Assembly: GCA_964610995.1 (NCBI GenBank)
Contig: CAZSWF010000002.1
Span: forward strand, 6,338 to 70,337
Direction of reading: 5' to 3'
Source of the DNA: an uncultured Candidatus Saccharibacteria bacterium
Lineage (GTDB): Bacteria > Patescibacteriota > Minisyncoccia > Phycocordibacterales > UBA9973
Length of the DNA stretch: 64,000 bases
The translations under genes and the position numbers were made by a program. Shown here one piece after another: positions 36,917 through 55,776 of this stretch. Numbering within the stretch: position 1 is the first letter of the stretch; the number at the start of each line of letters is the position of its first letter. The notes beneath the pieces were generated by a model. It had not been told where the DNA came from, did no database searches, and saw nothing but the letters and a program-made list of their open reading frames with translations.

Positions 36917-37435
36917 ATGTCACTTATTCAGTTCCTTGAAATAGTGATTTCTCTTCTATTGTTTAGCAATAAATTATTAGTATTGATCGATAAAAAAAGT
37001 GGTTGGGTAATAGGTGCCATTGGGTGCTTCATTGCAATGTGGTATCTCTATCTTCTCAAGTTGTATGTATTCACAATCCTTGAAATTGGACTAATAGTAC
37101 TCATGCTGTACGGCTATTTAGCTGGTAAAGAAAAGAAAGATTCTGTTGAAAGAATGATTATCGCTTTTCTTATCTTAGTTATGGCAAGTCTGACTTATTT
37201 CTTATTTGAAGGATCAATCACTACATATCAATTTATTGGAGGAATAGCACTAACTATTGGTACCTATTATTTGACTCATGGTAAAGCTATTACTGGATGG
37301 ATACTGTATTGTATTGGACATATAGTAACAGCATACCTTGGGTATCAAAAGCACCAATTATTTTTTGCTGATTTTCAAATCGCTTCCGCTATTGTTTCTA
37401 TCATTGCTATTATAAAAATTAGAAGAAAACACTAA
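36917..37435 (+). CDS. hypothetical polytopic membrane protein (AT-rich; possible PnuC-like)
   Basis: 172 aa, about 5 TM segments, Trp/Tyr/Gly-rich loops, and a strong AT bias. The PnuC-like assignment is tentative. Confidence 0.35.
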   Translation: MSLIQFLEIVISLLLFSNKLLVLIDKKSGWVIGAIGCFIAMWYLYLLKLYVFTILEIGLIVLMLYGYLAGKEKKDSVERMIIAFLILVMASLTYFLFEGSITTYQFIGGIALTIGTYYLTHGKAITGWILYCIGHIVTAYLGYQKHQLFFADFQIASAIVSIIAIIKIRRKH

Positions 37436-38259: not shown

Positions 38260-38751
38260 ATGCCAAAAGTTCTTGTGAGATTTCATCTCAAAAATAATCG
38301 CGACTGTGATAATGGCACCCTTATCACTGGTACCACTGAAGTAGGACACATCCTAAACAGCTACAAAAACAACAACATTCATGCGGTTGGAAATCTGATT
38401 GATATGTACTTCCTTTGTGAAAACATTATCAGCGAAAGAAATGATCTCCCTCCTGAAGGTATCCGGTTCACTTTTTTAAATCCTTTTACACCAAAAGATT
38501 TGCGTGGACTAAAACTAGAAGTACTAACTCTACCCCACAAAAAGGACTTCGTTGTACGTGCATTAGGTGTCCCTATTGAGTACATGTCCAAAGAAATGAA
38601 AACTGTTTTATTTGGACAAGATGACGTACGAAAGCATTTCGGAACAATGCTCTGGCAAGCTGAAAAGCTTGTAGCAGAACATTTCAAAAAAGACCCCATT
38701 CTCAAAGATGACGTAATCCAATTTATGGTGAATCATTTTGAGATCAGTTAA
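38260..38751 (+). CDS. hypothetical protein (AT-rich)
   Basis: 163-aa ORF with no known motif, followed by a strong terminator. Confidence 0.35.
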   Translation: MPKVLVRFHLKNNRDCDNGTLITGTTEVGHILNSYKNNNIHAVGNLIDMYFLCENIISERNDLPPEGIRFTFLNPFTPKDLRGLKLEVLTLPHKKDFVVRALGVPIEYMSKEMKTVLFGQDDVRKHFGTMLWQAEKLVAEHFKKDPILKDDVIQFMVNHFEIS

Positions 38752-38804: not shown

Positions 38805-39854
38805 ATGCAAATCATATTGATCATTATTGGGGTTGCTATCGGAGGCCTCGTCGTATACCTACTGACCCGCAAGTCTGCGGCACCTGCTCCCGATAACACT
38901 GGATTCTCCCTTCTCATGCAGCAAGTCGCCGACTTGCAAAAGGTAGTGGATCACAAGCTCTCACAGAGCGAACAGTCGATGCGCGAGAGTATGCGTGACC
39001 AGAGTACACAGAGCGCGCGCATCATTTCCGACATCACTGAGCGTCTCACCCGACTCGATGAGGGCAACAAACAGGTGCTCGGTTTTGCCGAAGGACTTGC
39101 ACAGCTCCAAGACATATTGAAAAATCCAAAACAACGCGGCGTGCTCGGTGAGTACTATCTCGAAACATTGCTCAAAAACATTTTGCCGCCGTCTGGATAC
39201 TCTATGCAGTACAGCTTCCCCGATGGCACGATCGTCGATGCAGCGGTCTTTGTCAAAGACAAGGTGATCCCTGTCGACTCCAAGTTCTCGCTCGAGAACT
39301 ACAACCGCATGACCGAGGAAAAAGAACCCGCCCGCAAACGGGATCTCGCAAAAATATTTGAAAATGATCTCAAGAACCGTATCGCCGAGACATCCAAATA
39401 CATTCAACCCGAGAACAACACGATGGACTTCGCATTTATGTTCATTCCACACGAAGCAATTTATTATGATCTGCTCGTTGGTACGGTCGGTGCAGGCGAA
39501 GAAGCTGAGAACTTGATCCAACGTGCGGCGTCCAAATACCGCGTGATCATCGTCTCGCCCACATCATTCCTTGCGTACCTGCAAACCGTACTTCAGGGAC
39601 TAAAGGCAATGCAAATCGAAGAAAGCGCCAAAGAAATCCGCAAGCGTGTCGACGAGCTCGGCCGACACTTGGCAAGCTATGAGGAATACCACAACAAGCT
39701 CGGCACTACACTCAAAACAGTGGTAAATCACTACAACAGTGCTTCCAAAGAGCTCAAAAAGGTAGACAAGGACGTTATGCGCATCGCCGGTACCGAGGCA
39801 GCACTCGAGCCACTGATCCTCGGAGAAAGTGAGGTAGAGCGAACGATAGAATAA
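38805..39854 (+). CDS. rmuC: DNA recombination protein RmuC
   Basis: N-terminal TM segment plus coiled coil, GVLGEYYLETLL, IVDAAVFVKDKVIPVDSKFSLENY and MDFAFMFIPHEA are RmuC family motifs. Confidence 0.8.
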   Translation: MQIILIIIGVAIGGLVVYLLTRKSAAPAPDNTGFSLLMQQVADLQKVVDHKLSQSEQSMRESMRDQSTQSARIISDITERLTRLDEGNKQVLGFAEGLAQLQDILKNPKQRGVLGEYYLETLLKNILPPSGYSMQYSFPDGTIVDAAVFVKDKVIPVDSKFSLENYNRMTEEKEPARKRDLAKIFENDLKNRIAETSKYIQPENNTMDFAFMFIPHEAIYYDLLVGTVGAGEEAENLIQRAASKYRVIIVSPTSFLAYLQTVLQGLKAMQIEESAKEIRKRVDELGRHLASYEEYHNKLGTTLKTVVNHYNSASKELKKVDKDVMRIAGTEAALEPLILGESEVERTIE

Positions 39855-39871
39855 GGGTATAGTAAAAAAAT

Positions 39872-39970
39872 AAAAGAGCTTTTGGAGTCGCGTAATTTTC
39901 TGCTGAAAATTCGCTGATACTCGGACCAGTCGTCCTGCGTAACACTCCAAAAGCTCTTTTATTTTTACTT
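39872..39970. terminator. long bidirectional stem-loop terminator with structured loop
   Basis: A perfect 17-bp stem AAAAGAGCTTTTGGAGT / ACTCCAAAAGCTCTTTT encloses a loop of about 55 nt that itself contains small hairpins. It is flanked by A-run and T-run and sits between convergent genes. Confidence 0.55.
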
Positions 39971-40729
39971 ACTAAACAATTCCGGATTTGCAATAGACTT
40001 AAACGCTGAGGTCGGCACGAGTATGCTCTGTGTACCTGCTGAGTATGGCGCTACTTGATACGGATCAAATATAAAGGTTACGCCGTTGTCGATAATAACG
40101 AAGTTTTGATAGTTGTCGATGATCGGTCGAGTACCTTCGGTGATCCATGATGCGTCACTGACATTTTTCTTGACTAGTTCTCGCTCCACAAATGTTGCAA
40201 CAGTTTCGAGCCCTTTGGCGCCGTTGGTAAAGAGTTTCTCGAGTGTGATCACTTCCCCTTTTTCATTAAATGCGTACGTGCGAGTCGCCTGCAGGCCATG
40301 TGCACCTCCGGTGTATGACGCGATCGTAAACACGTATGTGTTGGCTCGAGTCGCTATCGTTTCTTGGTAGGTAATATCGAGCGACAGCACGCCACGCGAA
40401 CTACTATCGATCGATGGATCCATCACCCACGATGTGTCTTCTATGAACTGTGCGATCTGTCCTTCGACAAACGACTTGAGCATATCGCTCGTGCGTGCAT
40501 CACGAGTCACAGGGTACTCGGCTTCTATTGCATAGTACTGATTATCCTGACGGAGTACTTCTTTGCGCACCTCAAGAGATGGCCAACTGATCACTTGATC
40601 ACTTGATGGTGGTACTGCTGCTGGATCTGGTGTGTGGTTTTTGCCCACCATGACCAGCCACACAATAAATGCTATACCAATGATGGTAATAAGTATGCTG
40701 CCTACTGATAGTTTGTGTGTTGTTTCCAT
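39965..40729 (-). CDS. DUF3298/DUF4163 (RsiV-like) domain protein, membrane anchored
   Basis: N-terminal TM segment. IASYTGGAHGLQATRTYAFNEKGEVITLEKLF is the DUF3298 signature. Confidence 0.7.
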   Translation of the reverse strand: METTHKLSVGSILITIIGIAFIVWLVMVGKNHTPDPAAVPPSSDQVISWPSLEVRKEVLRQDNQYYAIEAEYPVTRDARTSDMLKSFVEGQIAQFIEDTSWVMDPSIDSSSRGVLSLDITYQETIATRANTYVFTIASYTGGAHGLQATRTYAFNEKGEVITLEKLFTNGAKGLETVATFVERELVKKNVSDASWITEGTRPIIDNYQNFVIIDNGVTFIFDPYQVAPYSAGTQSILVPTSAFKSIANPELFSK

Positions 40730-40735
40730 AAAGCG

Positions 40736-41206
40736 TTAAAGAGTGATTTGTACTTCGAGTGCGTCGTCAAACTGTGGCTCACCGCTTGCATTGTTCTTTT
40801 TCAATATCAAGAACCCGCGACGATACGGTGTCTCGGCTGGCAGTGTGTACTCGATGCTCGCGGTAAACGGTACGTACTCAGTCGTCATCCATTCCCCTTG
40901 CGCGGTCGCATAACCTTCGGCAATGATAAGTCCATCCCAGTTTGTAAGAATAATAGGAAATGATCCCTCAAAGAACCAGTTGCCGCGAGCCTTGCCCCGG
41001 ATCGCTATCGGAGACCCTACGGTCGCCTGTGGACGCGGAGTCTCGAGGATGATCATGTCACCCTTTTGTGCAGGAGGTGCTTCGGGAGCAAGGGTAGGCT
41101 GTGGTAATGGCTGTATCACCACTGGTGCACTCGCATCTCGCAACAGTGCCCAAAATACGGCTGCGAAGCCTATGATCAGTACTAGTACCAAATATCGTTT
41201 TTTCAT
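40736..41206 (-). CDS. Gmad2 immunoglobulin-like domain protein
   Basis: Signal peptide. IRGKARGNWFFEGSFPIILTNWDGLIIAEGYATAQGEWMTTEYVPFTASIEY matches the Gmad2 family, which often partners DUF3298. Confidence 0.7.
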   Translation of the reverse strand: MKKRYLVLVLIIGFAAVFWALLRDASAPVVIQPLPQPTLAPEAPPAQKGDMIILETPRPQATVGSPIAIRGKARGNWFFEGSFPIILTNWDGLIIAEGYATAQGEWMTTEYVPFTASIEYTLPAETPYRRGFLILKKNNASGEPQFDDALEVQITL

Positions 41207-41270
41207 ACCCTTGAATTATACACCTCTCTCGGATATAGTATGCAAGCACTTACACATGTCGCCACACACT

Positions 41271-41342
41271 GGCCCTATCGTCTATCGGTTAGGACGAAAG
41301 CTTCTCAAGCTTTAAAGCCGGGTTCGATTCCCGGTAGGGTCA
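41271..41342 (+). tRNA. tRNA-Glu (anticodon CTC)
   Basis: Manual fold: acceptor GGCCCTA/TAGGGTC (one G-U), D-arm GTCT-ATCGGTTA-GGAC, anticodon stem AAAGC/GCTTT with loop TTCTCAA (CTC), T-arm CCGGG-TTCGATT-CCCGG, discriminator A. Confidence 0.75.
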
Positions 41343-41458
41343 CAGATTTTAAATACTTATTTATCAAGTTATTTTAAGACACCCGAATACATGTTCGGAA
41401 CTTTGTAATAAAAAACCACCCTTTTCCAAGAGCGGTTTCTCGTTTTTACTTGTTTTGA

Positions 41459-42475
41459 TTACAACGATTTTTCAAGTTCGATGAGCTTTTTAACTCCATT
41501 ATAAAGTTGCTCATAAATCTCACGTTCAGTTACCCCTAAACGACGTTTGTTGGAAATGTCGTAAATACCATCTGAAGACTCAGAATGCTCTCCGTGTACT
41601 CCACGGATCGAAAGTCCTAAATCTTTGCATACTTCATTGAAGTTACCCGAAGCAGAAAGCTTAGGAATTCTGATATGCACAGACGCGCGCATTGCTGTTC
41701 CAAGATTGGTTGGGCAAGTTGTGTGGTAGCCACGAACATCATCAAATGCGAAGTTAATCTTTTCATTGATGAAGTTGAGCGCAGTTGCGAGCCGTGTAAA
41801 GACTTCGGCAATGTCAGCTCCTGGCTGCATGCTAATGATGCGCATACTATCTTCTTCTGAAACCCATACAAGGAATTTCTTGTCATCAGAAAAGAAAATG
41901 CCGCGGTTCTTTGGCCAGTCACGGTTTACACCTGCACTTTCCAAGAAACGGTCACCCTGTTTGAACAAGAAGTGATCTTCCACCATTTTTGCACGAACTT
42001 CTTCACTCATGCCATCAAGGGGGAAATATTCACCCTTCAATGCTCCGGGAAGCTGTTTTAATGCTTCAATAATTTCAGACTCCATAGCAGCTCGATCTTC
42101 GCTGGAAATAGCTGAAGGAAATGCGTACTTCGCAAAATTGCGACCAACACGGATACGGGTGGATACCACATAATTACCCTCAGGATCCAAATTTTCAACA
42201 GGAAGCCCAGTGAGCGAAAAATCACTTTTGTGACCGCTCATATCATAATGGTGGTATTCCTTGATAATTGGATCAAGAAGTGGCGAAAGCATGGTATAGG
42301 ACTCAGGATCACCTGCGTAGATGCCAATACTCGAATCTGGATTATCAATACCAGATTGAATTGCTTTTTGTAGTGTCCAGCCATGTGGTGTTACTACGTT
42401 TTCTAACTGCATTTTCACTACTTCACTGTAGTGTTTTTTCATTAACATGTCGGGGTTTGTTGTAATTTCTGTCAT
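41459..42475 (-). CDS. arginine kinase (eukaryote-type phosphagen kinase)
   Basis: CPTNLGTAMRASVHI active-site signature. GIYAGDPESY...LDPIIKEYH, FLFKQGDRFLESAG...RGIFFSDDKKFLVWVSEEDSMRIISMQ and RGVHGEHSES...DISNKRRLG closely parallel invertebrate arginine kinases, not McsB. Confidence 0.85.
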   Translation of the reverse strand: MTEITTNPDMLMKKHYSEVVKMQLENVVTPHGWTLQKAIQSGIDNPDSSIGIYAGDPESYTMLSPLLDPIIKEYHHYDMSGHKSDFSLTGLPVENLDPEGNYVVSTRIRVGRNFAKYAFPSAISSEDRAAMESEIIEALKQLPGALKGEYFPLDGMSEEVRAKMVEDHFLFKQGDRFLESAGVNRDWPKNRGIFFSDDKKFLVWVSEEDSMRIISMQPGADIAEVFTRLATALNFINEKINFAFDDVRGYHTTCPTNLGTAMRASVHIRIPKLSASGNFNEVCKDLGLSIRGVHGEHSESSDGIYDISNKRRLGVTEREIYEQLYNGVKKLIELEKSL

Positions 42476-42544
42476 AAGAACAATAGTTTACTGTGAATTT
42501 TTAAATAATACTATCTTATAAGGCTTTTTTGTCAATTACACAAC

Positions 42545-42571
42545 AAACCCCCGTTTTGTGAACGGGGGTTT
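42545..42571. terminator. GC hairpin (terminator-like)
   Basis: AAACCCCCGTT-ttgtg-AACGGGGGTTT, lying downstream of the minus-strand ORF 42578-42895. Confidence 0.5.
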
Positions 42572-42577
42572 CATGAT

Positions 42578-42895
42578 TTAGGGTTTCTTTTTTCTGAGAT
42601 CGTAATAATTACTAATTTTAATGAACTCTATTTCTCCCTCCCAGTCCATATTTTTCAAAATCTCATGTACTTTGTGAACAATAACGTATTCACTACTAAA
42701 AAGACGAAGAAATGGTCGATCATCTTTTTGTGTACCCACAACCTTTGCGGTGATTTCAGAAAAAGTAAGATTTTTGTAATCATCTGGAGAAAGAATCTTT
42801 TCGAGCTTCTCCGATAGTTGATCTTTCAATTTCATAAATTCGGAATGAACATACCCATGAAATTCAATCAATGGGGAGTAACTGTTTTTCTGCAT
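42578..42895 (-). CDS. hypothetical small protein
   Basis: 105-aa ORF flanked on both sides by similar G5/C5 hairpins. Confidence 0.4.
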   Translation of the reverse strand: MQKNSYSPLIEFHGYVHSEFMKLKDQLSEKLEKILSPDDYKNLTFSEITAKVVGTQKDDRPFLRLFSSEYVIVHKVHEILKNMDWEGEIEFIKISNYYDLRKKKP

Positions 42896-42968
42896 AGTTT
42901 AATTTTCATAGAACTATAGTGCTTTTTGCACTAATGTCAAATAACACGTTCTACTGACTAGATAAAAC

Positions 42969-42993
42969 AAAACCCCCTGTATAAGGGGGTTTT
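42969..42993 (-). terminator. rho-independent terminator for the upstream minus-strand gene
   Basis: AAAACCCCC-tgtata-GGGGGTTTT. On the minus strand it is followed by GTTTTATC. Confidence 0.6.
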
Positions 42994-43012
42994 AAATGAT
43001 AGAAACAATGTA

Positions 43013-43420
43013 TTACATTGCTTCTGCATAGGTAGGTTGCAACGGCTTTTTTTCTTTGGGGTTCAAAGTATGCAGTACGCCAGGCTTGGGTTGATCGATC
43101 AATCGTTCGATTTTTTGCTCAAGCATTTTTACATCAGCAAACATGAACTTTTGTCTTTTGGCATACTTGTGCAGTTCGTCGCGCAGTTGTACCGACTGTC
43201 TTTTGTGCTCTGACATATCAGCAAGTACAAATGCAGTAACCATTCGTTCCTTTTTCGCAGTGATTGCAATATCAATAATCATTGCTGTAAAAACACATAC
43301 GATGCAGGTCACAAAAATAGGACCATCGAGGCTCTGGTACGCGAGATATCCAGTCAACATACTTCCTACAGCCACCAGGGGTGTATGGAGGGCAAGCAAT
43401 CGAAAGATTCTTTTTTTCAT
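43013..43420 (-). CDS. hypothetical small membrane protein
   Basis: 135 aa with two N-terminal TM helices and a charged C-terminus. Confidence 0.4.
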   Translation of the reverse strand: MKKRIFRLLALHTPLVAVGSMLTGYLAYQSLDGPIFVTCIVCVFTAMIIDIAITAKKERMVTAFVLADMSEHKRQSVQLRDELHKYAKRQKFMFADVKMLEQKIERLIDQPKPGVLHTLNPKEKKPLQPTYAEAM

Positions 43421-43545
43421 AATTTCAAATAAGGGGTTTAAGGTTTGTTTTCTCTATAATATCATACTATACACATATGTCAAGTATCCCCTCCCCGACC
43501 TTTTGACAATGGCTCAAAATCAAGTACAGTAAAGAAAAAAAGCTC

Positions 43546-44007
43546 ATGGAAAATCAAATAGAAAAACCTGTATACGAAACAGAGTCTGCTATTCTTTCTT
43601 TTTCAGGAAGTGGCAACTTTTTCCTTTGTGATGACTATGCTGCACCAATCAAAGTAGGTAGTACGGTGTACCCATCGGTACGTGCTGCGGTGGTTGCTCA
43701 CAAAACTAAAAATCACCGTATAAAAGCAAAGATTCGCAACGCAATGACTGCTATGAATCTCAAAGAAATAGAACGAAGTATCCCTGCCCCCTCACACTGG
43801 ACCAAAGAGTACATCATTGGCAAAATGACTGAGCTTACGATGCAAAAGTTTCTCAAACACCCAGAACTTAAAAAACGATTTCTCGCTACAAAACCAAAGT
43901 GGCTAACAAACCAAACCGAACCGACACTTCAACGATTGGAGATCGACGAAGTATGCGACGAACAAACATATGCAGACATCCTGATGAATGTTCGTGAACA
44001 ACTGTAA
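43546..44007 (+). CDS. NADAR/YbiA-like (DUF1768) domain protein
   Basis: FLCDDYAAPIKVGSTVYPSVRAAVVAHKTKN...HWTKEYIIGKMTELTMQKFLKHPELKKRFLAT is consistent with the NADAR N-glycosidase family. Confidence is moderate. Confidence 0.5.
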   Translation: MENQIEKPVYETESAILSFSGSGNFFLCDDYAAPIKVGSTVYPSVRAAVVAHKTKNHRIKAKIRNAMTAMNLKEIERSIPAPSHWTKEYIIGKMTELTMQKFLKHPELKKRFLATKPKWLTNQTEPTLQRLEIDEVCDEQTYADILMNVREQL

Positions 44008-44011
44008 GTAA

Positions 44012-44039
44012 AACCGCCTTTCGGCGGTTTCTTTTTTAT
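44012..44039. terminator. bidirectional rho-independent terminator
   Basis: AAACCGCC-tttc-GGCGGTTT followed by CTTTTTTAT. It lies between convergent genes. Confidence 0.7.
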
Positions 44040-44713
44040 ACGATATCTGCTTGTTTGGCTTCGATGGGAGTCTCGGCTATCGGCTCGATAGTGATCGCGC
44101 CTCCGTCACGACGTGTGAGTGTACGGTAGAGGTATGCGAGGAGAAGTGTCGCAACTGGGTATGTGACGATGATACCAATACCAAACAGTAGCATCCCCAC
44201 TATCGCCAAACACACCACGACCAATATGGTCAACAGTACCGTCCAAAACACATCTCGGGTGACGAGTCTCCATGAGTCCTTGATTGCAGCGATTGCGCGG
44301 CCTTTGTTGTCGATGAGTGAGAGCTGTGAGAACGCCAAGCGTGTCATGAAATAAATACCAGGAATGATGAGAAGGATAAATCCACCAAGCACCATCAGTG
44401 CGGTCAGGATCGCCACCTCGACGAGGAGGATGAACTGCCGCAGTGTGGGCAAGTGCTTGCCGAGTGCACGAAACGACAGCAGGTCATGCTTGGCATCCAC
44501 CGCAGCGAGCGACACCGAGAGCCATATGTACGAAAAGATAAGCGACAAGATCATCGCAAATATTTGCAAGAGTACGTGTTGGTCGCCAAGCTCTCCGGGA
44601 GCACTGAGCACAATGAGTATGAGCGTCATGCCCATGTAGAACCATGGTCGCTCTCTAAATAGGCCCCAACAAGTGCGGAGCGCTGCTTTGATCGAAAAGG
44701 TGAATGTAGTCAT
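44036..44713 (-). CDS. hypothetical polytopic membrane protein
   Basis: 225 aa with about 5 TM segments and no diagnostic motif. Confidence 0.45.
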   Translation of the reverse strand: MTTFTFSIKAALRTCWGLFRERPWFYMGMTLILIVLSAPGELGDQHVLLQIFAMILSLIFSYIWLSVSLAAVDAKHDLLSFRALGKHLPTLRQFILLVEVAILTALMVLGGFILLIIPGIYFMTRLAFSQLSLIDNKGRAIAAIKDSWRLVTRDVFWTVLLTILVVVCLAIVGMLLFGIGIIVTYPVATLLLAYLYRTLTRRDGGAITIEPIAETPIEAKQADIV

Positions 44714-44718
44714 AGATG

Positions 44719-46437
44719 TTAGCGGTCGGGTGGTATTTCGTAATAGTTACCAAGGAATTGTACCATATCAAAGAATGGATCACCCAGTGTTTGTATAGCA
44801 AAGAGAGCTTCTTTGGGGTACACATTGAAAAGGTAGAGCACGTAGCGTGGCTGTGATGCCGGGAAAAATCCGATGATCGAGTGCAAGTTGCGATCAGTAT
44901 AGTATCCAGTACCATCAGGGCGTGCGATCTGTGCGGTCCCCGTCTTTGCGGCGACACTGTAATGTGGTAGTCCTCGGTCGTAGCCATCGTCAACGACACG
45001 TATCAACATAGCCTTGATTGTGGTGAGCGTCTCAGGTTTGAGTAGTTGTTTGGTTGATTGTTCGGGTTCTATGGTGCGTTCGTACCCGCTTTGCTCTATG
45101 ACCGAGGTCGCGACGTGTGGAGTGACGAGCACCCCACCGTTGGCCAGTACTGCAAATCCGCGCACGATGTTGATCGGACTGGTCGCGATACCTTGCCCAA
45201 ACGATGCTGCTGCGAAGTTGATGTCGTTGTTGTCTTTGAGACTTCCTACTGCGCCGTTGACCTCTCCAGGCAGATCCACCCCTGTCTTGTCTCCAAGCTG
45301 ATAGCGATCGACGAGATATTCCCGAAATGCATTTCTCCCCATTTTTTGCTCGGCAAATATCATACCCGTGTTGAGTGACTCACTGAGCACCTGCTGCATG
45401 GTCACACCTTGACCACGACCTTTTTTGTCGAAGTTGTTGAGTGTCTTGCCATCGATCGTGACCGAACCTGTGTCGTTGTATGAGGTTGTAGGTGTAACTG
45501 CGCCTACATCGATCGCTGCAGCCATCACAAGCGGTTTGACGATGGATCCCATTTCATAGCGACCTTGCACGACAGGGTTTGTATACAAACTCGGATTTTT
45601 CACTGATCCGTACGCGTTGAGGTCAAAGCCGGGTGCCCCTGCCATTGCCACGATTCTGCCCGTGTGTGGATCCATAACTACCCCACCGACCATTTCACTG
45701 CCCCACTTGTTCTGGATCGTGTTGACCGTCTGTTCGAGTTGTGACTGCACCGTCGGCTCGATCGAGGTGACAATATCTCCAGTTGCAGCAGTATTTTTAA
45801 ATACGCCTGATTTTACATTTGCAAATATTTCAGCAAAAAAGTTGGTATAAAATTTGGTGCCGGTACGAGAAAGTATCTCGTTGTAGTATTCTTCGAGACC
45901 GTAGCTACCTGAGAGTGTATCCTTTTTGTACGAGACAAATCCAATAAGCTTGGATGCGAGGTCATTCCCAGGATAAAAGCGCCATTTTTCTCGATGCAAT
46001 GACACTCCCGGCAATCCCAACTCAGTCAAGAGCGCTGCATCATCTTCTTTGATACGGTTTTCTATTTCTTCGTACGGATCATTTTTCTTGGCAGCTTTGG
46101 CTAGAAATGCATCGCGTTCTATAGGTACAATTGCATTGATGGATTCATAGGTACGCTCAGGATCTGTAACAAGGCTTGGGTTGATCGCAAGCTTAAATCC
46201 GCTAACAACAGTCGCTGCTGCTACTGTCGTCTGGTCTTTGGTCGTCATGTAAATGTTGCCTCGATCAAAGCTTGCATTGGTCGGAGTGACGTAGTTGCGT
46301 TGTGCTTTTTCTTTATACATCGTCGTATTGACGATTTGTAACGAAAAAAGACGCATAATCACGATTGCTCCAACAAAGACGACAGTGCCGATCAAAAATC
46401 GTATCCGTGAGCGATGTATCGTATTAGCGTCCGACAT
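44719..46437 (-). CDS. ftsI: class B penicillin-binding protein (division transpeptidase)
   Basis: MGSIVKP (SxxK), SESLNT (SxN) and AAKTGTAQ (KTG). It lies downstream of ftsL-rsmH-mraZ. The start is trimmed to MSDANT to limit overlap with ftsL. Confidence 0.8.
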   Translation of the reverse strand: MSDANTIHRSRIRFLIGTVVFVGAIVIMRLFSLQIVNTTMYKEKAQRNYVTPTNASFDRGNIYMTTKDQTTVAAATVVSGFKLAINPSLVTDPERTYESINAIVPIERDAFLAKAAKKNDPYEEIENRIKEDDAALLTELGLPGVSLHREKWRFYPGNDLASKLIGFVSYKKDTLSGSYGLEEYYNEILSRTGTKFYTNFFAEIFANVKSGVFKNTAATGDIVTSIEPTVQSQLEQTVNTIQNKWGSEMVGGVVMDPHTGRIVAMAGAPGFDLNAYGSVKNPSLYTNPVVQGRYEMGSIVKPLVMAAAIDVGAVTPTTSYNDTGSVTIDGKTLNNFDKKGRGQGVTMQQVLSESLNTGMIFAEQKMGRNAFREYLVDRYQLGDKTGVDLPGEVNGAVGSLKDNNDINFAAASFGQGIATSPINIVRGFAVLANGGVLVTPHVATSVIEQSGYERTIEPEQSTKQLLKPETLTTIKAMLIRVVDDGYDRGLPHYSVAAKTGTAQIARPDGTGYYTDRNLHSIIGFFPASQPRYVLYLFNVYPKEALFAIQTLGDPFFDMVQFLGNYYEIPPDR

Positions 46438-46756
46438 TCCAAGCAAAGGCACGCTGTGATGGTGCAAATGATATTGATGTAGGCTCGACAAACCCTTTTT
46501 CTCGAGCATAACTTTCAGTTAGTACTTTTTGTGCGGAGAGAAACTCGAGCTCCTCTGTGCCCATCGATGAAATGAGTGCACGAGTTTCTTGTTGGAGTTC
46601 TTTTTCTTTAACGACAGAAAATGTGATTGCTCCGACGAAATACACATACCCGACAAAGAGTACGCCAGCGGCGATCCAGGTGTAGAGTGTGATCGATCTC
46701 AACGTTTTGTTGATATCGAGTGCTGCGGTATGAGTATGTCGGAGTGTAGTGTTCAT
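46424..46756 (-). CDS. ftsL: cell division protein FtsL-like
   Basis: 110-aa bitopic protein with a single TM segment, located between rsmH and ftsI. Confidence 0.6.
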   Translation of the reverse strand: MNTTLRHTHTAALDINKTLRSITLYTWIAAGVLFVGYVYFVGAITFSVVKEKELQQETRALISSMGTEELEFLSAQKVLTESYAREKGFVEPTSISFAPSQRAFAWNVGR

Positions 46757-47625
46757 GCGAAAGTAGGTTTTTCTATAATGCGAAGTTTGGCGCTACGCGA
46801 TCGAGGGTTGGTTGATAATTCGAGAGTACTAGGAACAATAGGTTTTTTTGTGATAACGCGTTCATGCGATTTCATCCAGTGTTTTACGATACGATCTTCG
46901 AGACTATGAAAAGTGATAACGGCGATACGACCCCCTGGTGCCAGCGCATCCCACCATGAGGCAAGTGCGGTCTGGATGACGGCGAGTTCATCGTTGACCG
47001 CGATACGCAATGCTTGGAAGGTCTTGGTAGCAGGGTGAATCTTGCCGCGTCGTGGGACACGGGCGAGAATGATGTTGGCAAGTTGTGCAGATGTAGTGAT
47101 AGGTCCCTGCGCACGGGCGTCGACTATGGCTTTGGCTATTTTACGAGAGCCTCTATCCTCACCATACGCATAGATAATGTCGGCAATGGATTCTTCACCC
47201 CATTCGTTGACAATGTCCCATGCTGTAAATCCAGTGTGCGATCCAGCCACTGAAAACGTCATGGTAAGCGGTGTGTCAGACATAAATGAAAATCCTCTCG
47301 TGTCACCGAGCAACTGAAATGTGCTCGTCCCCAAATCGAGCAACACCTTGTCTACCTGCGACAGTCCTGCCTGCGCGAGGATAGTGTCTACATCTTTGAA
47401 GTTGGCATGGACAAAGGTTGCCCTCGATCCAATGCTTTCTGTGAAGCGCACTTGTGCTGCTTCGTCGAGGTCGACACATACAAGCGTGATACCAGGGTAT
47501 CGCTCGAGCATGGCAGTAGAGTGTCCTCCACCACCAAACGTGCCATCGACTACTCGATCACTATCCGACAGCGCGAGACCTTCTATGCTTTCTTCTAAAA
47601 GAACCGAGATATGGTGTGTCTGCAT
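46753..47625 (-). CDS. rsmH: 16S rRNA m4C1402 methyltransferase
   Basis: HISVLLEESIEGL..., VDGTFGGGGHS and DLGTSTFQL are MraW/RsmH motifs. The start is trimmed to the second Met, which abuts the mraZ stop. Confidence 0.85.
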   Translation of the reverse strand: MQTHHISVLLEESIEGLALSDSDRVVDGTFGGGGHSTAMLERYPGITLVCVDLDEAAQVRFTESIGSRATFVHANFKDVDTILAQAGLSQVDKVLLDLGTSTFQLLGDTRGFSFMSDTPLTMTFSVAGSHTGFTAWDIVNEWGEESIADIIYAYGEDRGSRKIAKAIVDARAQGPITTSAQLANIILARVPRRGKIHPATKTFQALRIAVNDELAVIQTALASWWDALAPGGRIAVITFHSLEDRIVKHWMKSHERVITKKPIVPSTLELSTNPRSRSAKLRIIEKPTFA

Positions 47626-47626
47626 A

Positions 47627-48061
47627 CTAGAGCACTCCGATCCCACCGAGTCTCTCTGCGAGCTCGTCTGCACGAGTCTCTACGGTGCGCTTGTATGTTT
47701 TCCAGGTGTCTTCGTCCCAGAGTTCGACACGTGTATGGACACCGACCACTGCTATCTTGCCACTGAGTCCTGCCCTATCCCGCAAGAAATCCGGGATAAG
47801 TATGCGTCCATTTTGATCGACCGAGACTTCGGTTGCACCTCCGAGGAGGTAGCGGTTGAAGCTACGGGTATCAGCTTGGAGCATTGAGCTCTCTGCGAGT
47901 TTGCTCGTGATACGTGCCCACTCTTTGGTTGTAAATACAAACAGACACTTGTCGAGCCCTGGGGTTACTACCACACTTTTGCCCATTTCCTTTCTGAACT
48001 TCACTGGAAATGAGAGCCGTTTTTTATCATCAATTGTGTGGATGTATTCGCCGATTAACAT
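47627..48061 (-). CDS. mraZ: transcriptional regulator MraZ
   Basis: Duplicated DxxxR motifs (IDDKKRLSFP, VDQNGRILIP) are typical of MraZ. Confidence 0.85.
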   Translation of the reverse strand: MLIGEYIHTIDDKKRLSFPVKFRKEMGKSVVVTPGLDKCLFVFTTKEWARITSKLAESSMLQADTRSFNRYLLGGATEVSVDQNGRILIPDFLRDRAGLSGKIAVVGVHTRVELWDEDTWKTYKRTVETRADELAERLGGIGVL

Positions 48062-52688: not shown

Positions 52689-54539
52689 CTATTTACCAAA
52701 GTTGGTAATTCGACGTCCTAAGTTGTTTACTGGATTTTCAAGTATGGCAGGCTTTGCCCATACACCAGAAATCAATCCTGTATTTGCGGTCTTGGACTTC
52801 GTGATTCTTTGTTTTAGGAAAAATGGTTCAACCTCTACGTTGTAAAAACTAGCGGCCGCACTATCCATTTCGGAAAGCTTCCTATAAGCAAGAAGAACAT
52901 GTTTAGTGCTCCCGATGGAAATAGCTGACCGAAGCATTGCTGCTAATATCGCAAGAGATTTTATATTGCCCTGATCTAACCATTCACATAAAGATTTGTA
53001 TTCCCCATAGTGAAGCAGTTTTGCGGCCTTTCTCTCTTCTGCGATTCTTAATTTTTCAACCTCAGTTGTCGCTGTTTTAAAAGTTCCAAGTAGGTTAAGT
53101 TTTTTCTGTAAGAGACTAAGCCGATTCAAATCCTTTTCCTCTGTAGGTACAAATTCTGAATAGAACTCGAGTGATCTTACTGTCAATTCACATTCCTTTG
53201 TCTGTAGGGCTACTAAATCCTTTTGAATCTTTTCAACTGCCCGAAGAATGGTGTCGTGATACTCTAGAAAAAGTATCCTTTCTAGCACAACCTTAACAGC
53301 GTATTCATTTTTAGTTTTCATCGCACGACAAAGGAGACTGGAAAGGACGTTAGCAGATGTTGTTTTTGCAACACTGTGTTTAATCATTGCTTCTATCTCA
53401 GTATCGGAAGAAAAAGATCCTTGCTTGAATAAGCCATAAAGTACATCACGGTCGAAGGGTTTAATCGTATATGCCTCTTTACAGGACTTGATAAGGGCAG
53501 GATGCCGATAATCTATCGTAAGCGCCTTTCTACAATCCTCAAGCCTTTTTGCCAACCAGATCGGTCTGTCTTTAAACAGCATAATTTCAAGATTTGGAGG
53601 AACTTCAAAACCACTAATCGCGGCCATTCTATTGAATAGGACTTTTGAATTAACCTTTTGTACTAACCACCACAAAATGAGAGATTCTGTCTGAGAATTA
53701 TTTTTCCCTTGGCAATACAAGCACATTGGTACAAAAGTTGTTAAAGAGCCTCTCTCTACTAACCTCTGTACATCATTGGCTATAATTTTTTTATACCGCT
53801 TCTCGAATGTCTCAGCTGTATCAACAGCCCAGGCAACATCTTCCCGAACAAACGGTATTTGAAATATATCCTTTTGACCCTCATTTTCTAAAGAAGAAAA
53901 ACAGGTTGAAAATATAATTTCAGCTATTTCTCTTTCTCCTAGGTACAAGTAGTACCAGTAAAATGAGAGTAAAAGGTTTCTGCACCCGTATTCAAGGAGT
54001 TTTGATGTAAGGGCAACAAGACAATCGGTTCTCTTTTCATCTTTGGTTCTTAAACAAAAACGATACATTGCATCCCATGCTACCCACTGCCAGCTACTTT
54101 TGCGAGCTTTAACCGCAATTACTTTTTCAACAAATTGCAGTTGCTGGTCATTAATGGGCCACATTCTTTTATGAGCAAGAAGGAATACAATTGTTGATTC
54201 CACACCTTTGTCTAATACATATAGAGTGATCATATCTTCATAGGTGGAAAAGAAATAGGGTTCATTTTCAATTTTATTGAAGAAATCACTTTCTTTATAA
54301 GCATGAATTTCTTTAGCCCTTTTTGTATTTATCTTGCATCCTGTTAAATCTTCAATGAGGGATAAGCGCTCAGCCCCCATTAAATCACGGTGATAACACA
54401 AAACTATAAATGCTTCCGTGTTTTTACCTTCTTCGATAAGCGATTTTGCTTTGGAAATAATTCCTTGTTCATCCGATGTACCGATTTCTAAATCGGACAT
54501 CCTGTTGGATTGATTGGCGAAACGTGTCTTTTTCTCCAT
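52689..54539 (-). CDS. large hypothetical protein (616 aa), AT-rich island gene
   Basis: Long uninterrupted ORF of low GC, predicted helical, with no recognisable catalytic motif. It is the last gene of a three-gene minus-strand operon. Confidence 0.5.
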   Translation of the reverse strand: MEKKTRFANQSNRMSDLEIGTSDEQGIISKAKSLIEEGKNTEAFIVLCYHRDLMGAERLSLIEDLTGCKINTKRAKEIHAYKESDFFNKIENEPYFFSTYEDMITLYVLDKGVESTIVFLLAHKRMWPINDQQLQFVEKVIAVKARKSSWQWVAWDAMYRFCLRTKDEKRTDCLVALTSKLLEYGCRNLLLSFYWYYLYLGEREIAEIIFSTCFSSLENEGQKDIFQIPFVREDVAWAVDTAETFEKRYKKIIANDVQRLVERGSLTTFVPMCLYCQGKNNSQTESLILWWLVQKVNSKVLFNRMAAISGFEVPPNLEIMLFKDRPIWLAKRLEDCRKALTIDYRHPALIKSCKEAYTIKPFDRDVLYGLFKQGSFSSDTEIEAMIKHSVAKTTSANVLSSLLCRAMKTKNEYAVKVVLERILFLEYHDTILRAVEKIQKDLVALQTKECELTVRSLEFYSEFVPTEEKDLNRLSLLQKKLNLLGTFKTATTEVEKLRIAEERKAAKLLHYGEYKSLCEWLDQGNIKSLAILAAMLRSAISIGSTKHVLLAYRKLSEMDSAAASFYNVEVEPFFLKQRITKSKTANTGLISGVWAKPAILENPVNNLGRRITNFGK

Positions 54540-54617
54540 GTTTTTATTTTTTTGTAAGTGAACAATTTTATATCGACTTTATACTACATTGCATATTTAA
54601 TATGTCAATGTCATCAG

Positions 54618-55088
54618 TTACTGAACTTTGCTTCTAAACACTTCCAGGAGAAAAGGTATTTTATCTTTTAGAATGTTTATATTATTACCTATGTCGTTTA
54701 CCTTATCACTCATACCTGAAAGAATTGTAGTAGTTTCTTTTTGTTTTACTTCCAAGACTTCAATTTTATCCCCATGAGAATAGACTAAATAGCCCATCCA
54801 AACTAAAGCTGCGATTGCCGCCACAATAAGGCTAACAAAAATATTACTTAACAGATTTTCAAAACCAAATGCATCTCTTAGTCTCAAACGAAAAGGTTTC
54901 TTTGTCTTTCTACTTTTTTGAGGCTTTTTTTCCTCCTCAAAATTTGAAGAATCAGTTGTATCAACAGTATTAAATTTCTTTTCAGTTGTTTCTAAACCTG
55001 AAGATTTTAATAAAAAACGCTTATATGCATTTTTCTCATAAGGAGTTTTTCCTACATGTTCAGATCTAATGTATCTACTATTTTTCAT
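54618..55088 (-). CDS. hypothetical single-pass membrane protein
   Basis: 156 aa with a basic N-terminus (KPQKSRKTKKPFRLRLR), one TM segment (IFVSLIVAAIAALVWMGYLVY) and a coiled C-terminus. Confidence 0.45.
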   Translation of the reverse strand: MKNSRYIRSEHVGKTPYEKNAYKRFLLKSSGLETTEKKFNTVDTTDSSNFEEEKKPQKSRKTKKPFRLRLRDAFGFENLLSNIFVSLIVAAIAALVWMGYLVYSHGDKIEVLEVKQKETTTILSGMSDKVNDIGNNINILKDKIPFLLEVFRSKVQ

Positions 55089-55776
55089 TTTCGTTAAAAA
55101 TCCAAGGATAATACTTATTATCTAAGTATGAAATAGCATCTTTTATAAAAGCTTCTGTATCGCAGTCTCTTAGATCGTAGAAACTTGGATCATAGTAATA
55201 TTGGAAATCCAAATTTGCTTCAAACTTACCATCTTTTATTTCAGTAAAATTATAAATATAATTTTTGAAATCGTTTACATTTTTTCTATAAAGAGATTCT
55301 TTACTCTCTTCTTTTGATGAGAATGTTAAGTTTATGTTCTGAGCTTTATTTATTTTTGAGTTTGTAATTAATGGTATAACTGCTTTGAGTTTTTCTATAT
55401 TTGAAACTTCATGTCCAAAAATAACACCTATTCTGCTAATATTAACTAGCTCAAATTTTCTAAAAATGTGCTCTTTTAAATAAGGCAATACCTTATCGTT
55501 TAGGAATTTTATTTTTGTATCAAAATTACCTTCGACTTTCAATTTTATAATTAAATCATCTGTATTGATTCTAATATATTCATCTGTTTCAGTATTATAT
55601 AAGATTCTTTCTCGAAGATTGGTATCTCGAACCTCTGGGAACATTTCTGCTCCAAATGGCGACTCTTCGTCGTACAAAATATGGTCTATAATCCTTCCAG
55701 CCTCGTCTCTCAAACGAAAAGATCTCGAATGTCGTATACCTAGAATAACTGAAGTTATGTCCTTTTTTAGATTCAT
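55078..55776 (-). CDS. hypothetical protein (232 aa)
   Basis: AT-rich ORF whose stop overlaps the next gene's start by about 10 bp, with no motif I can assign. Confidence 0.45.
   Translation of the reverse strand: MNLKKDITSVILGIRHSRSFRLRDEAGRIIDHILYDEESPFGAEMFPEVRDTNLRERILYNTETDEYIRINTDDLIIKLKVEGNFDTKIKFLNDKVLPYLKEHIFRKFELVNISRIGVIFGHEVSNIEKLKAVIPLITNSKINKAQNINLTFSSKEESKESLYRKNVNDFKNYIYNFTEIKDGKFEANLDFQYYYDPSFYDLRDCDTEAFIKDAISYLDNKYYPWIFNENEK

What the first reader, a model, noticed from the sequence alone, without database searches (positions are those of the whole stretch)
41271..42475. Eukaryote-type arginine kinase adjacent to tRNA-Glu: likely horizontal acquisition
The 338-aa protein aligns along its whole length to invertebrate arginine kinases, with the CPTNLGT active-site loop, the guanidino-specificity region GIYAGDPESY...DPIIKEYH and the C-terminal RGxxGEHSES flexible loop. 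It does not fit the bacterial McsB-type pattern. Phosphagen kinases of this type are rare in bacteria and are thought to come from HGT. The gene sits next to a tRNA gene, a classic integration hotspot, and is followed by small AT-rich ORFs bounded by G5/C5 hairpins. In a reduced-genome or episymbiotic organism, an arginine phosphagen system would be a notable energy-buffering acquisition.
Basis: partly seen in the sequence, partly recalled or inferred. Interest (0 to 1): 0.75.

Follow-up and report, generated by a model that had tools for sequence, protein, structure and literature searches.

The report
Arginine kinase in a Patescibacteria genome
This is an intact arginine kinase gene, the enzyme that stores ATP energy as phosphoarginine, in an ultra-small candidate-phyla-radiation bacterium; it belongs to a large, conserved family spread through that group whose closest relatives are myxobacterial, so it is an old bacterial inheritance and not a recent theft from a eukaryote.

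Summary
ORF 41459..42475 (-) encodes a 338-aa two-domain phosphagen kinase (PF02807 + PF00217). It is 48-50% identical over its full length to solved animal arginine kinases and far below every McsB cutoff. All arginine-, phosphate- and catalysis-related residues are present. tRNA-Glu(CTC) lies 115 bp away.

The protein sits in a monophyletic Patescibacteria clade (82 of the listed 90%-identity clusters; NJ bootstrap 90%), sister to myxobacterial arginine kinases (98%). Every relative above about 55% identity whose origin I could determine is bacterial.

The gene lies at an orthologous locus (RmuC / DUF3298 / tRNA-Glu) in L004, whose kinase is 86% identical, and its composition is within the window's normal range. 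The tRNA-Glu is a conserved landmark that is also present in relatives with no kinase nearby. There is no att repeat and no integrase, and the "G5/C5 hairpins" are ordinary terminators. Independent assemblies reproduce both junctions, so chimerism is excluded.

What is left is an unreported distribution of a known enzyme: a likely phosphoarginine ATP buffer maintained in a patchy subset of Paceibacteria, after an ancient inter-bacterial transfer. It is a new member of a known kind and of moderate interest.

The parts
41459..42475 (-). Arginine kinase (ATP:L-arginine N-phosphotransferase-type phosphagen kinase), 338 aa. N-terminal helical domain at residues ~10-72, catalytic domain at ~131-337.
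   Evidence: ORF. Pfam PF02807 + PF00217. PDB hits to arginine kinases at 1e-99 and better. Catalytic residues mapped: D47, S48, Y53, R109, R176, E208, R212, C254, R263, R291, E296.
42508..42535 (-). Promoter-like site of the kinase gene (TTGACA, 16 nt, TAGTAT), 32 bp upstream of the ATG.
   Evidence: Consensus scan (10 of 12 matches). The scan as a whole is not enriched over shuffles, so this is a consensus match only; function is inferred.
41410..41441 (-). Intrinsic-terminator-like hairpin (14-bp stem including G-U pairs, GGAA loop, U-run) just after the kinase stop codon.
   Evidence: Sequence. Fold -17.6 kcal/mol, z = -4.55, 0 of 200 shuffles as stable. Not listed by the pattern scan.
41271..41343 (+). 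tRNA-Glu (anticodon CTC), convergent with the kinase. A conserved landmark of this chromosomal region, not part of the kinase unit.
   Evidence: ARAGORN and Rfam. Also found near RmuC and PBP2 in many kinase-less relatives, and 2.3-3 kb from the kinase in L012 and L004.
42578..42895 (-). orf105, a lineage-specific small gene directly upstream of the kinase, with its own promoter-like site (42913-42940) and terminator hairpin (42545-42571). Function unknown.
   Evidence: Same position and strand in L002, L003, L006 and L007 at 63-77% identity. Only 6 clusters among 5.8 billion proteins. No Pfam match above cutoff. No PADLOC or PHROG hit. GC 0.333, z = -2.3.
43013..43420 (-). orf135, a predicted small membrane / coiled-coil protein with its own promoter-like site (43456-43483) and terminator (42968-42994). 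Function unknown; part of the variable segment.
   Evidence: Found only in the identical Logan contig L001. No family hits.
43546..44007 (+). NADAR-like 153-aa gene with a terminator at 44011-44030; part of the variable segment between the tRNA-Glu and PBP2.
   Evidence: PF08719 NADAR at 5e-08 and 33.8 bits, just under the 35.1 cutoff. phrog_1017 at 2.6e-07. Terminator.

Best explanation
The gene encodes a cytoplasmic, monomer-type arginine kinase that reversibly moves the gamma-phosphate of ATP onto the guanidino nitrogen of free L-arginine. When ATP is plentiful the cell builds a phosphoarginine pool, and it regenerates ATP from ADP when supply drops. The gene is a stand-alone transcription unit with its own promoter-like site and terminator. 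It is one member of a kinase family maintained under strong purifying selection in a subset of Paceibacteria (Patescibacteria/CPR). That family is the sister group of the myxobacterial arginine kinases, which implies one old transfer between bacterial lineages or from a common unsampled donor. Descent was then mainly vertical, with gene-order scrambling and frequent loss or absence in related genomes. In this genome and its close relatives the gene lies in a variable stretch of the conserved RmuC - tRNA-Glu(CTC) - PBP2 - MraW region.

Shown here: family membership, an intact active site, clade structure, locus orthology with L004, and absence of integration scars. Inferred: the substrate is free arginine, and the physiological role is buffering ATP in a fermentative, host-dependent cell.
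For: Family: PF02807 + PF00217. Best solved relatives are arginine kinases (4rf6 domains 341-357 bits; arthropod AKs about 335 bits), against 116 bits for McsB covering only residues 97-337.

Active site: equivalents of shrimp/Limulus D62, S63, Y68, R126, R193, E225, R229, C271, R280, R309 and E314 are all present, and they are invariant (C271 apart from one gapped sequence) in 82 Patescibacteria clusters and 12 myxobacterial sequences. There is no deletion in the guanidino-specificity loop.

Clade: NJ on 168 sequences and 335 columns with 200 bootstraps gives Patescibacteria clade 90%, myxobacterial clade 96%, and the two as sisters 98%. The identity gradient is 70-93% (Patescibacteria), 56-69% (Myxococcota), at most about 52% (eukaryotes).

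Residence: the kinase is flanked by tRNA-Glu(CTC), DUF3298 and RmuC in the window and in L004. L012 has RmuC, then the kinase, then the tRNA-Glu. On the RmuC tree W + L017 + L018 + L004 get 82%. L002 and L004 share their left flank, and L002 and the window share orf105.

Composition: GC z = -0.6 and GC3 z = -1.0 against 70 window genes. Kinase GC tracks flank GC across 13 loci, r = 0.58, p = 0.04.

Known chemistry: the nearest named bacterial relatives are Myxococcales, and bacterial AKs listed in the literature include Myxococcus xanthus and Desulfotalea psychrophila (PMC6429109).
Against: No enzyme assay exists for any member of the Patescibacteria clade. Two loop positions differ from arthropod AKs (G64->S, V65->I), although sea-anemone AK domain 2 also has Ser at the first of these. 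A two-domain taurocyamine kinase is the second-best PDB hit, so a different guanidino substrate cannot be excluded from sequence alone.

The source of free arginine and the rest of the cell's energy metabolism cannot be read from a 64-kb window. Vertical inheritance is well supported only for the window and L004. Adding L012 gets 25% bootstrap. Other clade members with 76-91% identical kinases sit in unrelated contexts, so transfer within the phylum may have contributed. All trees here are NJ only, and nodes deeper than the Patescibacteria + Myxococcota pair are unresolved.
Confidence: 0.8

Rival explanations
1. Recent horizontal acquisition from a eukaryote (for example a host or prey invertebrate or protist), inserted at the tRNA-Glu as part of a small genomic island.
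For: The protein is 48-50% identical over its whole length to animal AKs. It lies beside a tRNA and next to AT-rich orphan ORFs. The segment between the tRNA-Glu and PBP2 is variable among relatives, and the kinase is absent from 80 RmuC-anchored relatives.
Against: About 80 of the listed clusters, 70-93% identical, come from Patescibacteria, and the closest outgroups (56-69%) whose origin could be determined are bacterial. The locus is orthologous in L004. The tRNA-Glu(CTC) is in the same region in relatives with no kinase nearby. There is no tRNA 3'-end repeat, no integrase, and no phage or defence hits. The kinase's composition is within the genome's range.
Confidence: 0.04
2. Repeated transfer within the phylum: the kinase, sometimes together with orf105, moves as a small cassette between Paceibacteria genomes, so its presence here reflects lateral spread inside the CPR and not descent.
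For: Kinases 76-91% identical sit in at least five unrelated neighbourhoods. The kinase is more conserved than its neighbours (86% against RmuC 67% and DUF3298 41% in L004). The distribution is patchy. Each gene is a self-contained promoter-to-terminator unit. A second, distinct Paceibacterota kinase group exists.
Against: No mobility genes or repeats flank the gene. Kinase and RmuC identities fall in the same order for L004 and L012. The window and L004 group on the RmuC tree at 82%. Flank sharing links the window, L004 and L002 in a chain. High conservation is expected of this enzyme family anyway. CPR gene order is known to be fluid (my own background knowledge, not tested here).
Confidence: 0.13
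3. Assembly or binning artefact: the segment is contaminating eukaryotic or myxobacterial DNA joined to a CPR contig.
For: None found. This is only the prior concern that animal-like genes in MAGs are sometimes contamination.
Against: An independent Logan contig matches 41321-43571 exactly across both junctions. The same gene lies inside Patescibacteria contigs up to 248 kb in the fetched loci, flanked by typical CPR genes. Flanking synteny is shared with L004 and L012. The gene is a bacterial-style intron-less unit with a sigma-70-like promoter and an intrinsic terminator.
Confidence: 0.01
4. The enzyme is intact but works on something other than free arginine: another guanidino compound, or arginine residues in proteins as McsB does.
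For: Loop positions 64 and 65 differ from arthropod AKs and vary within the clade (S/N/G and I/V). A taurocyamine kinase is the second-best PDB hit. JGI pipelines label some clade members 'protein-arginine kinase' or 'creatine kinase'.
Against: It falls far below the McsB cutoffs. It has the N-terminal domain and a full-length specificity loop with the Asp, Ser and Tyr that hold the arginine backbone in solved AKs. In the taurocyamine kinase alignment that loop is not conserved. The nearest named relatives are annotated as arginine kinase or phosphagen kinase. The JGI names look like automatic labels.
Confidence: 0.08

Closest known systems
Myxobacterial arginine kinases (Myxococcus xanthus Ark and homologs in Archangium, Vitiosangium, Corallococcus)
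   Same: Single-domain AK of about 330-370 aa with the same two Pfam domains. They are 56-69% identical to the window protein and form the sister clade with 98% NJ bootstrap. All catalytic residues are shared.
   Different: The hosts are large-genome, respiring, social predators, whereas this host is an ultra-small CPR bacterium. His284 is replaced by Leu in 8 of 12 myxobacterial sequences but is invariant in the Patescibacteria clade. The fruiting-body phenotype reported for M. xanthus (title cited in PMC6429109; the paper itself could not be read) has no counterpart here.
Other described bacterial arginine kinases (Desulfotalea psychrophila, Sulfurovum, Moritella sp. PE36)
   Same: Canonical AK-type phosphagen kinases scattered among bacteria, whose origin (ancient or HGT from eukaryotes) is called 'still debated' in PMC6429109.
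   Different: All of these are Proteobacteria in the older sense. I could not identify their sequences among the unnamed representatives, so their position relative to this clade was not tested.
Metazoan group-1 arginine kinases (Limulus, Litopenaeus 4bg4, Anthopleura 4rf6)
   Same: Same fold-defining domains, same catalytic and substrate-binding residues, and a full-length alignment at 47.7% (shrimp) and 49.6% (Anthopleura domain 2) identity.
   Different: The window protein is about 15-18 residues shorter at the N-terminus. It has G64->S and V65->I in the specificity loop, and one residue fewer between the R280 and R309 equivalents (query R263 and R291). It also lacks the three-residue insertion that Anthopleura carries in the flexible-loop region. 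It is a bacterial gene with a bacterial promoter and terminator.
McsB protein-arginine kinase (Firmicutes)
   Same: Shares the PF00217 catalytic domain (E about 1e-32 to PDB McsB chains).
   Different: McsB lacks the PF02807 N-terminal domain. The match covers only residues 97-337. NCBIfam McsB equivalog scores are 84-158 bits against cutoffs of 381-679. No mcsA, clpC or ctsR neighbours are present.

Membership tests
Phosphagen (ATP:guanidino) kinase superfamily | N-terminal helical domain (PF02807) plus C-terminal catalytic domain (PF00217) | tested here: met
   PF02807 at 7.1e-22 (78.1 bits, cutoff 25.7). PF00217 at 1.4e-72 (243.8 bits, cutoff 22.4), covering profile positions 2-202 of 203.
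Phosphagen (ATP:guanidino) kinase superfamily | Reactive cysteine in the CP(T/S)N(L/I)GT motif and five phosphate-binding arginines | tested here: met
   C254 in CPTNLGT; R109, R212, R263 and R291 plus R107. These are equivalents of C271, R126, R229, R280, R309 and R124, and are invariant in the clade.
Arginine kinase (EC 2.7.3.3), canonical type | Full-length guanidino-specificity loop with Asp62, Ser63 and Tyr68 equivalents that hold the arginine backbone, and the Asp62-Arg193 link | tested here: met
   D47, S48, Y53 and R176 are present with no loop deletion relative to shrimp AK. Positions 64 and 65 are S and I instead of G and V.
Arginine kinase (EC 2.7.3.3), canonical type | Catalytic glutamates Glu225 and Glu314 positioning the guanidinium; flexible loop RGxxGEH | tested here: met
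   E208 and E296; loop RGVHGEHSES. Both glutamates are invariant in 82 clusters.
Arginine kinase (EC 2.7.3.3), canonical type | Measured ATP:L-arginine phosphotransferase activity and preference for arginine | not testable with these tools
   Needs enzyme kinetics. Sequence supports arginine as substrate but does not prove it.
Arginine kinase (EC 2.7.3.3), canonical type | Groups with known AKs and not with creatine, glycocyamine, lombricine or McsB kinases | tested here: met
   PDB bit scores: AKs 308-357; CK 232-252; LK 227; GK 224; McsB 93-117. Sister to sequences annotated as Myxococcales arginine kinases at 98% bootstrap.
McsB protein-arginine kinase | Reaches the NCBIfam equivalog cutoff; no phosphagen-kinase N-terminal domain; mcsA/clpC operon context | tested here: not met
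   Best score 157.9 bits against a cutoff of 385. The N-terminal domain is present. Neighbours are a tRNA, orf105 and orf135, with no mcsA or clpC.
tRNA-targeted genomic island / integrative element | Integrase gene, direct repeat of the tRNA 3' end at the far boundary, and an empty site in relatives ending at the tRNA | tested here: not met
   No integrase among the neighbours. No second copy of the tRNA 3' 22-mer with up to 3 mismatches. No significant flanking repeats. Relatives do show compact kinase-less versions of the region, e.g. L020, so the segment is variable, but no element boundaries exist.

The most novel reading that the evidence does not exclude
A phosphoarginine/arginine-kinase energy buffer is a maintained trait of a whole sub-lineage of Paceibacteria. 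That would make it the first phosphagen system in the candidate phyla radiation, whose members are thought to live on minimal fermentative ATP budgets attached to hosts. Because this clade is the well-supported sister of the myxobacterial kinases, and further bacterial lineages lie at 55-59% identity, bacterial arginine kinases may form an old bacterial radiation and not a set of scattered thefts from animals. That would bear directly on the debated origin of phosphagen kinases.
Probability: 0.4. Interest if true: 0.6.

Novelty: new member of a known kind. Interest (0 to 1): 0.45.

Why it matters
Arginine kinases are textbook animal and protist enzymes. In bacteria the literature I could search lists only a handful of Proteobacteria and leaves their origin open (PMC6429109). 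Here the enzyme turns out to be a conserved family in Patescibacteria: 82 of the listed 90%-identity clusters, with an invariant active site. These organisms have tiny genomes and, from background knowledge, no respiratory chain and a host-dependent lifestyle.

If the enzyme really buffers ATP there, it says something concrete about how such cells handle fluctuating energy supply, for example between host contacts. It also gives a simple, testable biochemical handle: recombinant enzyme assays, and phosphoarginine detection by 31P-NMR or LC-MS in enrichments.

The well-supported sister relation to Myxococcota adds a data point to the question of whether bacterial kinases are ancient or acquired. 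I found no paper pairing arginine kinase with Patescibacteria, CPR or Parcubacteria. Database pipelines, however, already label some members 'arginine kinase' or 'phosphagen kinase', so this is an overlooked distribution and not a new kind of system.

Tried and rejected
1. orf105 as a functional partner of the kinase. It recurs upstream in 5 close relatives, but the family has only 6 clusters in the whole protein collection. It is absent from the more divergent kinase loci, has its own promoter and terminator, and has no family hit except a sub-threshold deaminase match. I rejected it as a general partner.

2. tRNA integration. I looked for an att repeat, flanking repeats, and phage or defence signatures. 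Nothing was found.

3. Naming the nearest outgroups through the listing of cluster members. Nine of ten were unnamed metagenome proteins and only a Percolomonas AK was named, so the placement of the bacterial clade relative to eukaryotes stayed unresolved.

4. The 50%-identity representative search. It collapsed the whole Patescibacteria + myxobacterial group into a few representatives and was dominated by multi-domain eukaryote-like proteins. It was useful only as an outgroup pool.

5. The genome-contig scan with a single protein. It reached only close relatives (82-91%), so it does not measure how many Patescibacteria species carry the gene.

6. Reading the M. xanthus Ark paper, PMC3347173. 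It is not held in the library.

7. A Biopython NJ bootstrap timed out and was replaced by my own NJ code.

8. Grouping L012 with the window and L004 on the RmuC tree. Support was only 25%, so common descent of the locus at that depth is left open.
Full report
**1. What is at the coordinates**

The finding's span joins two features. tRNA-Glu (anticodon CTC) lies at 41271..41343 on the plus strand (Rfam tRNA model 58.9 bits). An ATG-started ORF of 338 codons lies at 41459..42475 on the minus strand. The two are convergent and 115 bp apart.

**2. What the protein is**

- Pfam finds both halves of a phosphagen kinase. The N-terminal domain PF02807 scores 7.1e-22, and the catalytic domain PF00217 scores 1.4e-72 over essentially the whole profile.
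- Against solved structures, the best matches are arginine kinases. Each domain of the two-domain sea-anemone enzyme 4rf6 scores 341-357 bits. About twenty arthropod, trypanosome and other AKs score 308-335 bits over query residues 3-337.
- Other kinase types score lower: creatine kinases about 232-252 bits, lombricine and glycocyamine kinases about 225, and McsB protein-arginine kinases only 93-117 bits, restricted to residues 97-337.
- All five NCBIfam McsB models score 84-158 bits against cutoffs of 381-679. The protein is therefore not McsB.
- Identity is 47.7% to shrimp AK 4bg4 and 49.6% to Anthopleura AK domain 2.

**3. Is the active site intact?**

I mapped residues through the 4bg4 alignment, whose numbering matches the classical Limulus numbering. 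This assignment is from my knowledge of the AK structural literature; the alignment itself is.

| Role | Reference residues (4bg4) | Window protein |
|---|---|---|
| Hold the arginine backbone | D62, S63, Y68 | D47, S48, Y53 |
| Partner of D62 | R193 | R176 |
| Bind the phosphates | R126, R229, R280, R309 | R109, R212, R263, R291 |
| Position the guanidinium | E225, E314 | E208, E296 |
| Reactive cysteine | C271 | C254 |

- All of these are invariant across the 82 Patescibacteria clusters and the 12 myxobacterial sequences in my alignment; C254 is gapped in one sequence.
- The guanidino-specificity loop has no deletion.
- Two positions differ from arthropod AKs (G64->S49, V65->I50). Sea-anemone domain 2 also has Ser at the first of these.
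- The N-terminus shows no signal-peptide-like hydrophobic stretch (read by eye), so I infer a cytoplasmic enzyme.

This is the profile of an active, selected arginine kinase. The substrate itself is inferred, not measured.

**4. Whose gene is it?**

- The homolog search returned 5707 proteins at E <= 1e-30. The top ~80 clusters are 70-93% identical and 322-351 aa long, apart from one 262-aa fragment.
- Where a source gives a name, it is Candidatus Paceibacterota, Pacebacteria, Nomurabacteria GW2011 or Patescibacteria group.
- The next group is Myxococcota: Archangium and Vitiosangium at 66-69%, Myxococcus and Corallococcus at 57-61%.
- Named eukaryotic hits are two-domain proteins at 40-50%. 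In the exhaustive representative search the best full-length single-domain matches are at most 52%. The one I could name is the protist Percolomonas at 48-49%.
- A scan of GTDB species genomes found ten MAGs with 82-91% identical copies on contigs up to 248 kb. All are labelled Paceibacterota, Minisyncoccia, 'uncultured bacterium' or (probably by automatic classification) Saccharibacteria. Minisyncoccia is the NCBI class within Minisyncoccota.
- An NJ tree of 168 single-domain kinases (335 columns, Kimura distances, 200 bootstraps) recovers three groupings: the main Patescibacteria clade (90%), the myxobacterial clade (96%) and the two as sisters (98%). Deeper nodes are unresolved.
- Two further relatives at 56-59% identity are also bacterial. 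P0102 lies between Obg and YqeY in a Paceibacterota MAG; it belongs to a second small kinase group with 96% bootstrap. P0115 lies beside an ECF sigma factor and MacB/RND efflux genes, i.e. in a non-CPR bacterium.

So 'eukaryote-type' is right as a description of the enzyme class. The immediate relatives whose origin I could determine are all bacterial.

**5. Is it a recent insertion at the tRNA?**

Several independent tests say no.

*Composition.* The kinase gene has GC 0.424 (z = -0.6) and GC3 0.379 (z = -1.0) against 70 genes of the window. Across 13 genomes, kinase GC tracks flanking GC (r = 0.58, p = 0.04) with no consistent offset.

*Locus orthology.*
- The window order is Obg - ... - ExoX-like - small ORF - RmuC - DUF3298 - Gmad2 - tRNA-Glu - kinase - orf105 - orf135 - NADAR-like - membrane protein - PBP2 - MraW.
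- L004 (kinase 86%) has kinase - five small genes - tRNA-Glu(CTC) - DUF3298 (41%) - RmuC (67%) - ExoX (59%).
- L012 (kinase 74%) has GatB - Obg - MYG1 - holin-like - YqeY - ExoX - small ORF - RmuC (63%) - kinase - four small genes - tRNA-Glu(CTC) - ... - DUF3298/PdaC - PBP2.
- L002 shares its left flank with L004 (78% and 58% identical genes) and shares orf105 with the window.

*The tRNA is part of the framework.* I fetched 80 metagenome loci anchored on RmuC (57-78% identical). None has a kinase within the fetched flanks. About two dozen have tRNA-Glu(CTC) within a few kb of RmuC, and many also have PBP2 and MraW. In L020, for example, the tRNA is at +948, PBP2 at +2746 and MraW at +4872.

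*RmuC tree.* On an RmuC tree of 82 loci, the window groups with L017 and L018 (100%) and then with L004 (82%). Adding L012 gets only 25%. All 77 kinase-less loci fall outside the smallest group that contains the three kinase-bearing loci in the point-estimate tree. L017 and L018 end before the site, so their state is unknown.

*No element signatures.* There is no second copy of the tRNA 3' 22-mer with up to three mismatches. There are no meaningful direct or inverted repeats across 41200-44800. None of the neighbours is an integrase, and they give no PADLOC or PHROG hits apart from an uncharacterised PHROG for the NADAR-like gene.

The stretch between RmuC, the tRNA-Glu and PBP2 is a variable region in this lineage, the kinase lies in it, and across Paceibacteria the kinase is patchy.

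**6. The hairpins and small ORFs**

orf135, orf105 and the kinase each have a TTGACA-16-TAnnnT promoter-like site (43483..43456, 42940..42913 and 42535..42508). Each is followed by a G+C-rich hairpin and a T-run (42994..42968, about 42571..42545 and about 41441..41410). The hairpins fold at -15.7, -18.6 and -17.6 kcal/mol, with z-scores of -3.9, -3.3 and -4.6. They are ordinary intrinsic terminators of three monocistronic units, not island boundaries. The promoter scan as a whole is not enriched over shuffles (7 found, 7.5 expected), so the promoters are plausible but unproven.

orf105 is conserved upstream of the kinase in five close relatives at 63-77%. Its family has only six clusters in the whole collection and it is missing from the more divergent kinase loci. 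I therefore treat it as a lineage-specific orphan and not as a partner.

**7. Chimerism**

- A Logan assembly contig from run SRR12762274 matches window 41321-43571 exactly: 2251 bp with no mismatch. It spans from inside the tRNA through the kinase, orf105 and orf135 into the NADAR-like gene.
- The same gene is embedded in long Patescibacteria contigs in many independent projects.

Contamination with eukaryotic DNA is excluded for practical purposes.

**8. How it most likely works**

*Shown:* an intact, strongly conserved arginine-kinase-type enzyme encoded as a stand-alone unit in a Paceibacteria genome.

*Inferred from the established chemistry of the family (EC 2.7.3.3):* it catalyses ATP + L-arginine <-> ADP + N-phospho-L-arginine, building a phosphagen pool that regenerates ATP when supply falls.

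*Inferred further, and speculative:* Patescibacteria are generally described as fermentative, auxotrophic and host-attached (background knowledge). In such a cell, a temporal ATP buffer fed by scavenged arginine could smooth energy supply between host contacts or during energy-demanding bursts. Nothing in the conserved neighbourhood points to a specific coupled pathway. The neighbours differ from genome to genome.

**9. Comparison with what is known, and novelty**

A 2019 review lists bacterial arginine kinases only from Desulfotalea, Myxococcus, Moritella sp. PE36 and Sulfurovum. It states that it is 'still debated' whether they are ancient or were acquired from eukaryotes (PMC6429109). A 2025 structural review discusses only McsB on the bacterial side (PMC12467219). 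Full-text searches pairing 'arginine kinase' with Patescibacteria, candidate phyla radiation or Parcubacteria returned nothing. NCBI and JGI pipelines already label some members 'arginine kinase', 'phosphagen kinase', 'creatine kinase' or 'protein-arginine kinase'.

The enzyme is therefore a new member of a known kind. The phylum-level distribution and the sister relation to Myxococcota appear not to have been discussed in the literature I could search.

**10. Verdict**

The enzyme class and the organism type are right. The recent eukaryotic HGT, the tRNA integration and the island boundaries are not supported. Interest is moderate (0.45): this is a solid, testable and apparently undescribed occurrence of a phosphagen system in CPR bacteria, but not a new mechanism.

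Noticed in passing
window 52689-55776 (minus strand): The strongest compositional outlier of the window. Three consecutive ORFs of 616, 156 and 232 aa have GC 0.38, 0.31 and 0.28 (z down to -3.3) and no Pfam or PHROG hit. The only PADLOC match is a very weak one to a type II restriction enzyme (E = 0.0085). This is a better candidate for recently acquired DNA than the kinase.
   Followed up: partly
window 42578-42895 (-); also L002 5581-5901, L003 5580-5891, L006 3840-4157, L007 5580-5897: orf105 is a 105-aa orphan that stays directly upstream of the kinase in five close relatives (63-77% identity). Its family has only six clusters among 5.8 billion proteins, it has GC 0.333, and it gives a sub-threshold match to a toxin-deaminase Pfam family (22.4 bits, cutoff 29.6). 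Function unknown.
   Followed up: partly
L097 1121-2116 (NCBI GCA_040880505.1, Paceibacterota MAG): A second, separate arginine-kinase group occurs in Paceibacterota (P0102, P0107, P0119). It is 57-59% identical to the window protein, has 96% bootstrap as its own group, and is not reliably joined to the main clade. The gene is inserted between Obg and YqeY. Those two genes flank a different part of the same conserved block in the window.
   Followed up: partly
window 36917-37435 (+): A 172-aa AT-rich gene (GC 0.322, z = -2.5) with a near-threshold match to the nicotinamide mononucleotide transporter family (25.4 bits, cutoff 27.3). It sits between the YqeY-like and ExoX-like genes, which are adjacent in L012 with no gene called in the ~330-bp gap between them. 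It looks like a lineage-specific insertion.
   Followed up: no
window 43546-44007 (+): A 153-aa NADAR-like protein (PF08719, 33.8 bits, just under the 35.1 cutoff; phrog_1017 at 2.6e-07) lies in the variable segment, with a clean terminator at 44011-44030. No partner gene is evident next to it.
   Followed up: no
L017-L096 compared with window 38805-47673: The block ExoX - RmuC - tRNA-Glu(CTC) - (variable genes) - PBP2 - MraW recurs across many Paceibacteria-like metagenome contigs. The spacing between RmuC and PBP2 ranges from about 2.7 kb to more than 7 kb, so this is a conserved framework with a variable-content slot.
   Followed up: partly
L015/L016 9245-10101 (Nomurabacteria GW2011_GWB1_37_5 and a related MAG): In this lineage the kinase lies between tRNA-His and a PP2C-type protein phosphatase gene. 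This pairing was not seen in the other loci, and I did not test whether it has any meaning.
   Followed up: no
window 25721-26146 (+) and 38260-38751 (+): Two more small AT-rich ORFs (141 aa with GC 0.338; 163 aa with GC 0.380) have no Pfam hit. Orphan AT-rich genes are scattered through the window and are not specific to the kinase neighbourhood.
   Followed up: no
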